In this document: positions 7,801 to 24,200 of the stretch, piece after piece
Layout of the letters: each line of letters begins with the position of its first letter
Numbering within the stretch: the first letter of the stretch is position 1
NCBI RefSeq assembly: GCF_009914755.1
Contig: NC_060928.1
DNA length: 64,000 nucleotides
Direction: 5' to 3' (one strand)
DNA from: the human T2T-CHM13v2.0 reference genome, Homo sapiens
Notes under the pieces: generated by a model
What the model was told of the DNA's origin: nothing
The model's database searches: none
Seen by the model: only the letters and a program-made list of their open reading frames with translations
Translations under genes and position numbers: made by a program

Positions 7801-10800
7801 CTTTAAGTTTTAGGGTACATGTGCACAATGTGCAGGTTAGTTACATATGTATACATGTGACATGCTGGTGCGCTGCACCCACTAGCTCGTCATCTAGCAT
7901 TAGGTATATCTCCCAATGCTATCCCTCCCCCCTCCCCCCACCCCACAACAGTCCCCAGAGTGTGATGTGCCCCTTCCTGTGTCCATGTGTTCTCATTGTT
8001 CAATTCCCACCTATGAGTGAGAATATGTGGTTTTTGGTTTTTTGTTCTTGCAATAGTTTACTGAGAATGATGATTTCCAATTTCATCCATGTCCCTACAA
8101 AGGACATGAACTCATCATTTTTTATGGCTGCATAGTATTCCATGGTGTATATGTGCCACATTTTCTTAATCCAGTCTATCATTGTTGGACATTTGGGTTG
8201 GTTCCAAGTCTTTGCTATTGTGAATAGTGCCACAATAAACATTCGTGTGCATGTGCCTTTATAGCAGCATGATTTATAGTCCTTTGGGTATATACCCAGT
8301 AATGGGATGGCTGGGTCAAATGGTATTTCTAGTTCTAGATCCCTGAGGAATCGCCACACTGTCTTCCACAATGGTTGAACTAGTTTACAGTCCCACCAAC
8401 AGTGTAAAAGTGTTCCTATTTCTCCACATCCTCACAAGCACCTGTTGTTTCCTGACTTTTTAATGATTGCCATTCACACTGGTGTGAGATGATATCTCAT
8501 TGTGGTTTTGATTTGCATTTCTCTGACGGCGAGTGATGGTGAGCATTTTTTCATGTGTTTTTTGGCTGCATAAATGTCTTCTTCTGAGAAGTGGCTGTTC
8601 ATATCCTTCGCCCACTTTTTGATGGGGTTGTTCGTTTTTTCCTTGTAAATTTGTTTGAGTTCATTGTAGATTCTGGATATTAGCCCTTTGTCAGATGAGT
8701 AGGTTGTGAAAATTTTCTCCCATTTTGTGGGTTGCCTATTCACTCTGCTGGTAGTTTCTTTTGCTGTGCAGAAGATCTTTAGTTTAATTAGATCCCATTT
8801 GTCAATTTTGGCTTTTGTTGCCATTGCTTTTGGTGTTTTAGACATGAAGTCCTTGCCCATACCTATGTCCTAAATGGTAATGCCTAGGTTTTCTTCTAGG
8901 GTTTTTATGGTTTTAGGTCTAACGTTTAAGTCTTTAATCCATCTTGAATTGATTTTTGTATAAGGTGTAAGGAAGGGATCCAGTTTCAGCTTTCTACATA
9001 TGGCTAGCCAGTTTTCCCAGCACCATTTATTAAATAGGGAATCCTTTCCCAGTTGCTTGTTTTTCTCAGGTTTGTCAAAGATCAGATAGTTGTAGATATG
9101 TGGCATTATTTCTGAGGGCTCTGTTCTGTTCCATTGATCTATATCTCTGTTTTGGTACCAGTACCATGCTGTTTTGGTTACTGTAGCCTTGTAGTATAGT
9201 TTGAAGCCAGGTAGCGTGATGCCTCCAGCTTTGTTCTTTTGGCTTAGTATTGACTTGGCGATGTGGGCTCTTTTTTGGTTCCATATGAACTTTAAAGTAG
9301 TTTTTTCCAATTCTGTGAAGAAAGTCATTGGTAGCTTGATGGGGGTGGCATTGAATCTATAAATTACCTTGGGCATTATGGCCATTTTCACGATAATTGA
9401 ATCTTCCTACCCATGAGCATGGAATGTTCTCCCATTTCTTTGTATCCTCTTTTATTTCATTGAGCAGTGGTTTGTAGTTCTCCTTGAAGAGGTCCTTCAC
9501 GTCCCTTGTAAGTTGGATTCCTAGGTAGTTTATTCTCTTTGAAGCAATTGTGAATGGGAGTTCACTCATGATTTGACTCTGTGTTTGTCTGTTATTGGTG
9601 TATAAGAATGCTTGTGATTTTTGTACATTGATTTTGTATCCTGAGACTTTGCTGAAGTTGCTTATCAACTTCAGGAGATTTTGGGCTGAGACAATGGGGT
9701 TTTCTAGATATACAATCATGTCGTCCGCAAACAGGGACAATTTGGCTTCCTCTTTTCCTAATTGAATACCCTTTATTTCCTTCTCCTGCCTAATTGCCCT
9801 GGCCAGAACTTCCAACACTATGTTGAATAGGAATGGTGAGAGAGGGCATCCCTGTCTTGTGCCAGTTTTCAAAGGGAATGCTTCCAGTTTTTGCCCATTC
9901 AGTATGATATTGGCTGTGGGTTTGTCATAGATAGCTCTTATTATTTTGAGATACGTCCCATCAATACCTAATTTATTGAGAGTTTTTACTATGAAGGGTT
10001 GTTGAATTTTGTCAAAGGCCTTTTCTGCATCTATTGAGATAATCATGTGGTTTTTGTCTTTGGTTCTGTTTATATGCTGGATTACATTTATTGATTTGCG
10101 TATATTGAACCAGACTTGCATCCCAGGGATGAAGCCCACTTGATCATGGTGGATAAACTTTTTGATGTGCTGCTGGATTCAGTTTGCCAGTATTTTATTG
10201 AGGATTTTTGCATCAATGTTCATCAAGGATATTGGTCTAAAATTCTCCTTTTTCATTGTGTCTCTGCCCAGCTTTGGTATCAGGATGATGCTGGCCTCAT
10301 AAAATGGGTTAGGGAGGATTCCCTGTTTTTCTATTGATTGGAATAGTTTCAGAAGGAATGGTACCAGTTCCTCCTGTACCTCTGGTAGAATTCGGCTGTG
10401 AATCCATCTGGTCCTGGACTTTTTTTGGTTGATAAGCCATTGATTATTGCCACAATTTCAGCTCCTGTTATTGGTCTATTCAGAGATTCAACTTCTTCCT
10501 GGTTTAGTCTTGGGAGAGTGTATGTGTCGAGGAATTTATCCATTTCTTCTAGATTTTCTAGTTTATTTGCGTAGAGGTGTTTGTAGTATTCTCTGATGGT
10601 AGTTTGTATATCTGTGGCGTTGGTGGTGATATCCCCTTTATCCTTTTTTATTGCATCTATTTGATTCTTCTCTCCTTTTTTCTTTATTAGTCTTGCTAGT
10701 GGTCTATCAATTTTGTTGATCTTTTCAAAAAACCAGCTCCTGGATTCATTAATTTTTTGAAGGGTTTTTTGTGTCTCTATTTCCTTTGATTTTAGTTATT

Positions 10801-21285: not shown

Positions 21286-24200
21286 TTTTATTATTATTGT
21301 ACTTTAGGTTCTAGGGTACATGTGCACAACATGCAGGTTTGTTACATATGTATACATGTGCCATGTTGGTGTGCTGCACCCATTAACTCGTCATTTACAT
21401 TAGGTATATCTCCTAATGCTATCCCTCCCCGCTCCCCCTACCCTACAACAGGCCCCAGTGTGTGATGTTCCCCTTCCTGTGTCCAAGTGTTCTCATTTTT
21501 CAATTCCCACCTGTGAGTGAGAATATGTGGTGTCTGGTTTTTTGTCCTTATGATAGTTTGCTGAGAATGATGGTTTCCAGCTTCATCCATGTCCCTTTAA
21601 AAGGACATGAACTCATCATTTTTTATGGCTGCATAGTATTCCATGGTGTATATGTGCCATATTTTCTTAATCCAGTCTATCATTGATGGACATTTGGGTT
21701 GGTTCCAAGTCTTTGCTATTGTGAATAGTGCCGCAACAAACATACGTGTGCATGTGTCTTTATAGCAGCATGACTTATAATCCTTTGGGTATATACCAAG
21801 TAATGGGATGGCTGGGTCAAATAGTATTTCTAGTTCTAGATCCCTGAGGAATTGCCACACTGTCTTCCACAATGGTTGAAATAGTTTACAGTCCCAACAA
21901 CAGTGTAAAAGTGTTCCTATTTCTCCACATCCTCTCCAGCATCCGTTGTTTCCTGACTTTTTAATGATTGTCATTCTAACTGGTGCGAGATGGTATCTCA
22001 TTGTGGTTTTCATCTGCATTTCTCTGATGGCCAGTGATGATGAGCATTTTTTCATGTGTCTTTTGGCTGCATAAATGTCTTCTTTTGAGAAGTGTCTGTT
22101 CACATCCTTCACCCACTTTGTGATGGGGTTGTTTGTTTATTTCTTGTAAATTTGTTTGAGTTCTTTGTAGATTCTGGATATTAGCCCTTTGTCCGATGAG
22201 TAGATTGCAAAAATTTTCTCCCATTCTATAGGTTGCCTGTTCACTCTGATGGTAGTTTCTTTTGCTATGCAGAAGATCTTTAGTTTAATTAGATCCCATG
22301 TGTCAATTTTGGCTTTTGTTGCCATTGCTTTTGGTGTTTTAGACATGAGGTCCTTGCCCATGCCTATGTCCTGAATGGTGTTGCCTAGGTTTTCTTCTAG
22401 GGTTTTTATGGTTTTAGATCTAACATTTAAGTCTTTAATCCATCTTGAATTAATTTTTGTATAAGGTGTAAGGAAGGGATCCAGTTTCAGCTTTCTACAT
22501 ATGGCTAGCCAGTTTTCCCAGCACCATTTGTTAAATAGGGAATCCTTTCCCCATTTCTTGTTTTTGTCAGGTTTGTCAAAGATCAGATGGTTGTAGATGT
22601 GTGGTATTATTTCTGAAGGCTCTGTTCTGTTCCATTGGTCTATATCTCTGTTTTGGTACCAGTATCATGCTGTCTTGGTTACTGTAGCCTTGTAGTATAG
22701 TTTGAAGCCAGGTAGCGTGATGCCTCCAGCTTTGTTCTTTTGGCTTAGGATTGACTTGGCAATATGGGCTCTTTTTTAGTTCCATATGAACTTTAAAGTA
22801 GTTTTTTCCAATTCTGTGAAGAAAGTCATTGGTAGCTTGATGGGGGTGGCATTGAATCTATAAATTACCTTGGGCATTATGGCCATTTTCACGATAATTG
22901 AATCTTCCTACCCATGAGCATGGAATGTTCTCCCATTTCTTTGTATCCTCTTTTATTTCATTGAGCAGTGGTTTGTAGTCCTCCTTGAATAGGTCCTTCA
23001 CATCCCTTATAAGTTGGATTCCTAGGTATTTTATTCTCTTTGAAGCAATTGTGAATAGGAGTTCACTCATGATTTGGCTGTTTGTCTGTTATTGGTATAT
23101 AAGAATCCTTGTGATTTTTGCACATTGATTTTGTATGCTGAGACTTTGCTGAAGTTGCTTATCAGCTTAAGGAGATTTTGGGCTGAGACAATGGGGTTTT
23201 CTAGATATACAGTCATGTCATCTGCAAACAGGGACAATTTGACTTCCTCTTTTTCTAATTGAATACCCTTTATTTCTTTCTTCTGCCTCATTGCCCTGGC
23301 CAGAACTTCCAACACTATGCTGAATAGGAATGGTGAGAGAGGGCATCCCTGTCTTGTGCCAGTTTTCAAAGGGAATGCTTCCAGTTTTTGCCCATTCAGT
23401 ATAATATTGGCTGTGGGTTTGTCATAAAGAGCTCTTACTATTTTGAGATACGTCCCATCAATACCTAATTTATTGAGAGTTTTTAGCATGAAGGGTTGTT
23501 GAATTTTGTCAAAGGCCTTTTCTGCATCTATTGAGATAATCATGTGGTTTTTGTCTTTGGTTCTGTTTATATGCTGGATTATGTTTTTTGATTTGCGTTT
23601 GTTGAACCAGACTTGCATCCCAGGGATGAAGCCCACTTGATCATGGTGGATAAGCTTTTTGATGTGCTGCTGGATTCGGTTTGCCAGTATTTTATTGAGG
23701 ATTTTTGCATCGATGTTCATCAGGGATATTGGTCTAAAATTCTCTTTTTTTGTTGTGTCTCTGCCAGTCTTTGGTATCAGGATGATGCTGGCCTCATTAA
23801 ATGAGTTAGGGAGAATTCTCTCTTTTTCTATTGATTGTAATAGTTTCAGAAGGATGGTACCAGCTCCTCCTTGTACCTCTGGTAGAATTCGGCTGTGAAT
23901 CCATCTGGTCCTGGACTTTTTTTGGTTGGTAAGCTATTAATTATTGCCTCAATTTCAGAGCCTGTTATTGGTCTATTCAAAGATTCAACTTCTTCCTGGT
24001 TTAGTCTTGGGAGGGTCTATGTGTCCAGGAATTTATTCATTTCTTCTAGATTTTCTAGTTTCTTTACATAGAGGTGTTTATAGTATTCTCTGATGGTAAT
24101 TTGTATTTCCGTGGGATCAGTGGTGATATCCCCTTTATCATTTTTCTATTGCATCTATTTGATTCTTCTCTGTTTTCTTCTTTATTAATCTTGCTAGCAG

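What the first reader, a model, noticed from the sequence alone, without database searches (positions are those of the whole stretch)
9278..22979. Two neighbouring L1s of different subfamilies share a 201-bp identical block carrying private mutations and a frameshift
Seen: L1-A 9278-9478 and L1-B 22779-22979 (offset 13,501) are identical over 201 bp, while the rest of the two elements differs frequently, including at subfamily-diagnostic sites (catctagcatt vs catttacatt, gatggtgagc vs gatgatgagc). The block holds about six non-canonical changes (9345, 9376, a 1-bp insertion near 9395, 9401, 9431, 9438). Both ORF2s therefore frameshift into the same aberrant tail, [31 protein letters not shown] (ORFs 9357-10139 and 22858-23070), instead of canonical [26 protein letters not shown]. 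The in-window L1PA13-like copy has the canonical state (caatattgtaaaaatggccatactgccc, about 53371). The flanks are unrelated (unique DNA vs THE1 LTR), so this is not a segmental duplication. Inference: ectopic gene conversion copied post-insertion mutations from one dead L1 into its neighbour.
Basis: partly seen in the sequence, partly recalled or inferred. Interest (0 to 1): 0.8.

Follow-up and report, generated by a model that had tools for sequence, protein, structure and literature searches.

The report
Short sequence copied between neighbouring L1s
Two dead L1 retrotransposons that landed separately 13.5 kb apart on human chromosome 4 share one 201-base stretch, private mutations and a frameshift included, which is best read as an ordinary short DNA-repair copy (ectopic gene conversion) between neighbouring repeats.

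Summary
Window 9278-9478 and 22779-22979 are identical at 201 of 201 bases. The two minus-strand L1s otherwise differ by 293 events in 4494 aligned columns, and the next longest identical run is 111.

The elements are independent insertions:
- They take opposite states at 25 of 28 sites that separate their respective relatives.
- Their 5' ends differ and their flanks are unrelated.
- Each is closer to dispersed copies (96% and 94%) than to the other (93%).

The block carries six non-majority states. Five occur in 0-1 of 33 unbiased relatives. The full haplotype and each of its sub-haplotypes were exact only at these two loci in the T2T-CHM13 genome.

Non-allelic gene conversion is therefore well supported (about 0.85). 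Its direction is unresolved. The tract is 94-201 bp and probably younger than about 6-15 Myr (rates recalled).

Two cautions:
- Run length alone is weaker evidence than it looks.
- Four further shared "rare" sites outside the block are not evidence; two of two tested occur elsewhere in the genome.

A third neighbouring L1 shares three uncommon variants with L1-A. This is a known kind of event, of modest interest.

The parts
7784..12259 (-). L1-A. It is 5'-truncated, with its 3' poly(A) seen as T-rich DNA at the left end. It belongs to the 'a-type' lineage.
   Evidence: Alignment to L1-B and to dispersed copies. The end sequences were read. No target-site duplication was found.
21285..26430 (-). 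L1-B, of the 'b-type' lineage. It reaches the L1 5' start but lacks about 869 nt by a GT-AG-bounded deletion. It is inserted in an LTR-like repeat.
   Evidence: NCBI's mask to 26508 includes flanking repeat. The approximate target-site duplication AAC[C/T]TCTTT was read by eye.
9278..9478 (.). The identical block in L1-A, which is the maximal extent of the converted tract.
   Evidence: 201 of 201 identical. It is bounded by L1-B-private differences at 9277 and 9479.
22779..22979 (.). The identical block in L1-B.
9345..9438 (.). The minimal tract, spanning the six shared non-majority states (9345G, 9376T, +A at 9395, 9401A, 9431C, 9438C). The L1-B equivalents are 22846-22939.
   Evidence: Frequencies in 33 unbiased relatives are 1, 0, 0, 0, 0 and 3. 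None of 49 panel copies carries more than 2 of the 6.
9395..9395 (-). 1-bp insertion (22896 in L1-B) that shifts the ORF2 frame into the shared aberrant tail.
   Evidence: The 30-mer spanning it and 9401A is exact only at the two loci genome-wide. Three other copies have the insertion alone.
9431..9528 (.). A stretch in which L1-A shares three uncommon states (9431C, 9438C, 9528G) with a third L1 (L1-C) 11.2 kb upstream. This is a possible second tract.
   Evidence: Suggestive only.
1..224 (-). The in-window end of the collinear part of L1-C. The rest lies left of the window.
   Evidence: 94% identical to L1-A at 11151-11373.
271..1714 (+). The inverted 5' segment of L1-C, a twin-priming-like structure.
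   Evidence: It matches L1-A (95.7% over 874 bp) and L1-B (92.2% over 1445 bp) in reverse orientation.
26338..26339 (-). The splice-like junction inside L1-B, joining the 5'UTR directly to early ORF1.
   Evidence: An unspliced copy (L043) has GT and AG exactly at the two break points.

Best explanation
Two L1 retrotransposons of different lineages inserted independently, in the same orientation, 13.5 kb apart. Both decayed. Later a break or heteroduplex in one copy was repaired using the other as template (non-allelic, ectopic gene conversion, for example by synthesis-dependent strand annealing). This overwrote 94-201 bp and carried the donor's accumulated private mutations, including a 1-bp frameshifting insertion, into the recipient.

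Shown: independent origin; a bounded identical tract; a haplotype unique to the pair in this genome.

Inferred: the repair mechanism; germline timing; an age below roughly 6-15 Myr, from zero differences in 201 bp (mutation rates recalled).

The tract lies in a 364-bp stretch (9260-9624) with no lineage-diagnostic differences. Local identity before the event was therefore above average, which would favour pairing.

The direction (A to B or B to A) is not resolved. There is no functional consequence, because both elements were already dead.
For: - 201 of 201 bases are identical, against 6.5% divergence overall.
- Simulated P for such a run is 1e-4 to 1.2e-3.
- A takes the a-type state and B the b-type state at 25 of 28 sites that separate 25 A-relatives from 8 B-relatives.
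- A matches dispersed copies at 95-96% and B matches them at 94%, but A and B match each other at 93%.
- The flanks are unrelated and the 5' ends differ.
- Five block variants occur in 0-1 of 33 unbiased relatives and the sixth in 3 of 33.
- A-B is the sole outlier among 595 pairs for clustered shared rare states: 5, against at most 2 for the others.
- Genome-wide, the 201-mer is exact only at the two loci, with the next best at 98% (40 of 804 candidates scored).
- The 30-mer pattern gave 5 matches at up to 2 mismatches. Only the pair is exact.
- The 63-mer and 77-mer sub-haplotypes are exact only at the pair (40 of 502 and 40 of 98 candidates scored).
- The three other copies with the same 1-bp insertion share none of the other five variants.
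Against: - Run length by itself is not extreme empirically. Among 786 similarly divergent panel pairs, 6 had longer identical runs (5 of them involving one locus, L073) and 1 tied.
- The block region evolves at about 0.65 times the average rate.
- My relatives panel under-samples the true lineages. A state absent from all 33 (9833A) is exact in at least 32 other genomic copies.
- The whole-genome DNA searches score only 40 best candidates each.
- No outgroup species, second human assembly or raw reads could be examined. The pre-conversion state, polarity and assembly correctness are therefore untested.
Confidence: 0.85

Rival explanations
1. Shared source lineage. Both elements descend from a small L1 sub-lineage that already carried the six-variant haplotype, so no exchange occurred.
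For: Some shared 'rare' states outside the block turned out to be lineage-level or recurrent. 9833A is exact at 32 or more other loci and 9207C at 6. Single block variants do occur in other copies.
Against: The haplotype and each half of it are exact only at the pair. The flanks of the block differ at 25 of 28 lineage-diagnostic sites. A source with a frameshifted ORF2 would be a poor progenitor (established knowledge of L1 cis-preference, recalled).
Confidence: 0.04
2. Assembly or polishing artefact. One block was overwritten with the other's sequence during assembly or consensus polishing.
For: Not testable here. Nothing positive was seen.
Against: The copies are only 93.5% identical and 13.5 kb apart, and the patch is internal with divergent sequence on both sides. 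That is unlike a collapse. The known accuracy of this assembly is recalled, not tested.
Confidence: 0.04
3. Chance conservation. A slowly evolving stretch stayed identical, and the shared variants are parallel mutations.
For: The block holds 4.9% of pairwise differences in 7.6% of columns. Runs of 200 or more occur in 8 of 786 comparably divergent pairs.
Against: Those other long runs are identity to the common state, not shared rare states. No other pair of 594 shares more than 2 clustered rare states, against 5 here. One of the shared changes is an indel.
Confidence: 0.02
4. Old tandem or segmental duplication of one L1 followed by divergence, with the block as a remnant.
For: Same orientation and a near-constant offset of 13,497-13,513.
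Against: The flanks are unrelated. The 5' ends differ: one is truncated and the other is spliced and full-length. 25 of 28 diagnostic sites differ. Each copy is closer to dispersed copies than to the other.
Confidence: 0.01
5. A refinement rather than a rival. The event is part of repeated exchange among three clustered L1s (C, A, B), with A as the donor to B. On this reading 9431C and 9438C were already shared by A and C.
For: L1-C, 11.2 kb upstream of A, carries 9431C, 9438C and A's otherwise unseen 9528G (0 of 49), but none of 9345G, 9376T, the insertion or 9401A. C is the best genome-wide match to A 9402-9535 after A itself, with 2 mismatches against 3 or more. The two next-best copies carry only 9431C. 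Elsewhere A and C share only 2 weakly rare states among about 19 A-rare sites in about 1100 bp.
Against: The margin is thin (2 vs 3 mismatches). Only 501 bp of C's collinear part could be fetched. Contiguity of 3 shared sites among 11 has a chance probability of about 0.05 (my arithmetic). The order B to A, then A to C, is not excluded. The density of rare variants in the block (6 in 201 bp) fits B's private density (74 in 2617) better than A's (40 in 2617).
Confidence: 0.3

Closest known systems
Non-allelic (ectopic, interlocus) gene conversion between nearby retrotransposon copies, as described for neighbouring Alu elements
   Same: A short tract is homogenised between independently inserted repeats a few kb apart, and it transfers linked mutations. 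A review states that rates are elevated between copies within less than 10 kb and depend on identity (PMC6598467, passages read, citing Aleshin and Zhi 2010).
   Different: Here the partners are L1s, 13.5 kb apart and only about 93.5% identical overall. The Aleshin and Zhi paper itself was not held, so its details are second-hand.
Gene conversion involving L1 sequences in double-strand-break repair and at L1 loci
   Same: L1 copies serve as templates for short conversion tracts. Passages in PMC1920257 cite cell-culture repair of a LINE break by endogenous LINEs, with tracts as small as 13 bp (Tremblay et al. 2000). They also describe a 377-bp intrachromosomal conversion into an L1 locus.
   Different: Those cases are experimental, or involve insertion of foreign L1 segments. 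Here a natural germline-fixed patch sits inside an otherwise collinear element.
Interlocus gene conversion in human segmental duplications
   Same: Non-reciprocal copying between paralogous DNA. Only the search listing and abstract start of PMC10172114 were seen.
   Different: Segmental duplications are typically far more alike than these two L1s, and they share flanks. Here the paralogy comes from transposition.

Membership tests
Non-allelic gene conversion between dispersed repeats | The partners are paralogues of independent origin, not one duplicated locus. | tested here: met
   25 of 28 diagnostic sites differ. The flanks are unrelated. The 5' ends differ.
Non-allelic gene conversion between dispersed repeats | A bounded tract whose identity far exceeds that of its flanks. 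| tested here: met
   A run of 201 with no differences, against 6.5% overall. Simulated P is 1e-4 to 1.2e-3.
Non-allelic gene conversion between dispersed repeats | The tract carries shared derived variants absent from other family members. | tested here: met
Non-allelic gene conversion between dispersed repeats | Phylogenetic incongruence: inside the tract the nearest relative is the partner, outside it other copies are nearer. | tested here: met
   Tract: partner 100%, next best 98%. Whole element: partner 93%, other copies 94-96%.
Non-allelic gene conversion between dispersed repeats | The pre-conversion state is seen in an outgroup species or another haplotype, giving polarity and date. 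| not testable with these tools
   Only this one human assembly is searchable. It has no relatives here (header).
Segmental or tandem duplication | Flanking unique sequence is co-duplicated and identity is uniform. | tested here: not met
L1 sub-subfamily (shared source element) | The same haplotype is present in several dispersed copies. | tested here: not met
   The DNA searches scored 40 best candidates each. The 30-mer pattern scan returned 5 matches in the whole genome.
Spliced integrated retrotransposed element, SpIRE97/976 type (for L1-B, noticed in passing) | A full-length 5' start with precise loss of the interval between the 5'UTR donor and an acceptor early in ORF1, with GT and AG at the ends in unspliced copies. 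| tested here: met
   The junction in L1-B was compared with the unspliced locus L043. The class is described in PMC5860796 (passages). Nucleotide numbering 97/976 was not checked against the L1.3 reference.

The most novel reading that the evidence does not exclude
The three same-region L1s (C, A, B, within about 30 kb) form a small hotspot of recurrent ectopic exchange between repeats only 93-95% identical, with at least two overlapping tracts of different age. The youngest tract (zero differences in 201 bp) could be human-specific or still polymorphic. That would give a natural example for measuring how much divergence germline conversion between old L1s tolerates.
Probability: 0.25. Interest if true: 0.4.

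Novelty: new member of a known kind. Interest (0 to 1): 0.25.

Why it matters
The finding has no functional consequence, since both elements were already dead.

It is a clean, well-bounded natural example showing that old, about 6%-diverged L1 copies can still exchange short tracts. That matters in three ways:
- Such patches distort L1 subfamily assignment and age estimates.
- They can move linked mutations between repeats.
- They mark pairs of repeats able to pair ectopically. The same pairing can mediate deletions or duplications between direct repeats.

I ran no search aimed at this locus. The three gene-conversion literature searches listed no paper about it.

Tried and rejected
1. "Several patchy tracts between A and B." Four more shared states absent from the 33-copy panel (8775, 9207, 9833, 10114) at first looked like extra tracts. 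The exact 82-mer with 9833A is at 32 or more other loci, and the 74-mer with 9207C at 6 others. I dropped the idea. 8775 and 10114 were not tested. The 5' 1959 bp has one shared rare site (11304).

2. Polarising the tract by lineage-diagnostic sites. None lies between 9260 and 9624.

3. Polarising by density of private variants. This gives a weak lean to B as donor. The L1-C data give a weak lean to A as donor. The direction stays unresolved.

4. A PRDM9-type 13-mer (motif recalled) as a cause of local breaks. There was 1 match in the window, in a C-rich tract at 7927, and 33 of 100 shuffles did as well.

5. Target-site duplication for L1-A. None was found.

6. The first panel (L003-L030) was chosen by similarity to the block itself, so it is enriched for block variants. 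It was replaced for frequency estimates by 33 copies chosen on whole-element similarity. Loci covering fewer than 2500 aligned bases, and L033 (the same locus as L037), were dropped before alignment.

7. My first attempt to align window 1-1100 of L1-C collinearly failed at 42% identity, because that part is inverted.

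Full report
**Observation**

Both lie in L1 elements read on the minus strand. I call them L1-A (7784-12259) and L1-B (21285 to about 26430).

A global alignment of the two elements has 4494 columns with 293 difference events, 284 substitutions and 9 indels, which is 6.5%. 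The longest identical runs are 201, 111, 95 and 94.

- Both ORF2 remnants run into the same tail ...[18 protein letters not shown] and stop at 9357 and 22858.
- The canonical motif is at 53371.
- The quoted diagnostic motifs are at homologous positions in the two elements.
- The flanks have no detectable similarity.

**Is the run more than chance?**

I placed the observed differences at random over the 2.6 kb for which I had a panel. This gave P(max run >= 201) of 1e-4 under a uniform model, and 5.5e-4 to 1.2e-3 when sites were weighted by their diversity among other L1 copies.

An empirical control is less favourable. I aligned 51 sequences and took the 786 pairs with at least 85% as many differences as A-B. 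Six of these had longer identical runs, five of them involving one locus (L073), and one tied. The block also lies in a somewhat slow stretch, with 4.9% of pairwise differences in 7.6% of columns.

Identity alone would therefore not carry the claim.

**Shared rare variants**

What carries the claim is what the block contains. The first panel, L003-L030, was picked by similarity to the block and so is biased towards its variants. I therefore built a second panel of 33 copies picked on whole-element similarity, 25 to L1-A and 8 to L1-B.

In that panel the six shared states have these frequencies:

| Site | State | Copies of 33 |
|---|---|---|
| 9345 | G | 1 |
| 9376 | T | 0 |
| 9395 | extra A | 0 |
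| 9401 | A | 0 |
| 9431 | C | 0 |
| 9438 | C | 3 |

I counted, for all 595 pairs, the states shared by two sequences and by at most one other. A-B is the sole outlier, with 9 in total and 5 within 210 columns. No other pair exceeds 3 in total or 2 clustered. None of 49 panel copies carries more than 2 of the 6 variants.

**Genome-wide uniqueness**

In the 3.1-Gb assembly that holds the window:
- The 201-mer is exact only at the two loci. The next best hits are 98% (40 of 804 candidates scored).
- A 30-mer spanning the insertion and 9401A gave 5 matches at up to two mismatches. Two are exact (the pair). Three carry the insertion but not 9401A, and those three share none of the other five variants.
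- The left half (63-mer with 9345G and 9376T) is exact only at the pair (40 of 502 candidates scored).
- The right half (77-mer with 9431C and 9438C) is exact only at the pair (40 of 98 candidates scored).

**Independent origin**

Of 28 sites where the A-relatives and B-relatives have different, well-supported majorities, L1-A has the a-state and L1-B the b-state at 25. I excluded five end-gap columns from the 33 listed.

L1-A matches dispersed copies at 95-96% and L1-B matches them at 94%, but they match each other at 93%.

L1-A is 5'-truncated at 12259. L1-B continues 5' for more than a kilobase, reaches the start of the L1 5'UTR, and sits inside an LTR-like repeat.

This rules out a tandem or segmental duplication and shows two separate insertions of different lineages. 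I could not name the subfamilies because no repeat library was available.

**Mechanism**

The best reading is non-allelic gene conversion. One copy was repaired from the other over a short tract, so the donor's post-insertion mutations, frameshift included, now sit in both.

The tract is at least 94 bp (9345-9438) and at most 201 bp. It is bounded by L1-B-private differences at 9277 and 9479.

No lineage-diagnostic site lies between 9260 and 9624. Pre-existing local identity was therefore above average, which plausibly favoured pairing. The same gap leaves the direction unpolarised.

Zero differences in 201 bp put a 95% upper bound of about 6-15 Myr on the event, for rates of 1.2e-9 to 0.5e-9 per site per year (rates recalled).

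The repair pathway, germline timing and date are inferences.

**A correction to my own first reading**

Four further shared states absent from the panel (8775, 9207, 9833, 10114) suggested more tracts. However, the exact 82-mer bearing 9833A occurs at 32 or more other loci, and the 74-mer bearing 9207C at six.

These are lineage-level or recurrent variants, and my panel under-samples the real lineages. I do not count them. 8775 and 10114 were not tested.

**A third element**

The 77-mer search turned up a hit 11.2 kb upstream of L1-A, just left of the window. This is L1-C, whose inverted 5' part occupies window 271-1714.

A 501-bp fragment shows that L1-C carries 9431C, 9438C and L1-A's 9528G, which is absent from all 49 panel copies. 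It lacks the four left-hand block variants.

L1-C is the best genome-wide match to L1-A 9402-9535 after L1-A itself, with 2 mismatches against 3 or more for other copies. The two next-best copies carry only 9431C.

Elsewhere L1-A and L1-C share only 2 weakly rare states in about 1100 bp.

This suggests, but does not establish, a second and older tract between A and C. It gives a weak lean to A as donor to B. The variant density in the block leans the other way. L1-B and L1-C also share 9610C (0 of 49), which I cannot explain.

**What is known**

Ectopic conversion between nearby retrotransposon copies is established for Alu, with elevated rates within less than 10 kb (PMC6598467, passages).

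L1 copies are known templates and targets of short conversion tracts (PMC1920257, passages).

A 2026 preprint mentions conversion as one of the processes that blur older L1 histories (PMC13192797, one passage).

This finding is therefore a new, clean instance of a known process, without functional consequence.

**Untested**

I could not test assembly correctness, other human haplotypes or ape orthologues.

Noticed in passing
window 21285-26430, junction at 26338/26339: L1-B is a spliced L1. Its 5'UTR joins directly to early ORF1, and an unspliced copy (L043) shows GT and AG exactly at the two break points, about 869 nt apart. This is the SpIRE97/976 type of Larson et al. 2018 (PMC5860796). Their supplementary list of 11 such elements, and all 11 of its chr4 entries, show no locus near this one.
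   Followed up: partly
left of the window to window 224, then window 271-1714 (inverted): A third L1 (L1-C) with a 5' inversion, a twin-priming-like structure. It is closer to L1-A (95.7%) than to L1-B (92.2%). It shares 9431C, 9438C and 9528G with L1-A, and 9610C with L1-B.
   Followed up: partly
loci L003 and L004 (contig C6, about 24 kb apart, opposite strands): Two L1 copies are 98.8% identical over 2157 bp and carry the same block haplotype (9376T and 9438C). They are probably an inverted duplication rather than independent insertions.
   Followed up: no
window 9833 and 9207 (23330 and 22708 in L1-B): States absent from all 33 panel relatives are nevertheless exact in 32 or more and in 6 other genomic copies. 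The 40-candidate whole-element searches therefore did not return the true nearest relatives of either element.
   Followed up: yes
window 7927-7939: This is the only match in the window to the PRDM9-type degenerate 13-mer. It lies in a C-rich tract of the L1-A 3' region and is not above chance.
   Followed up: yes
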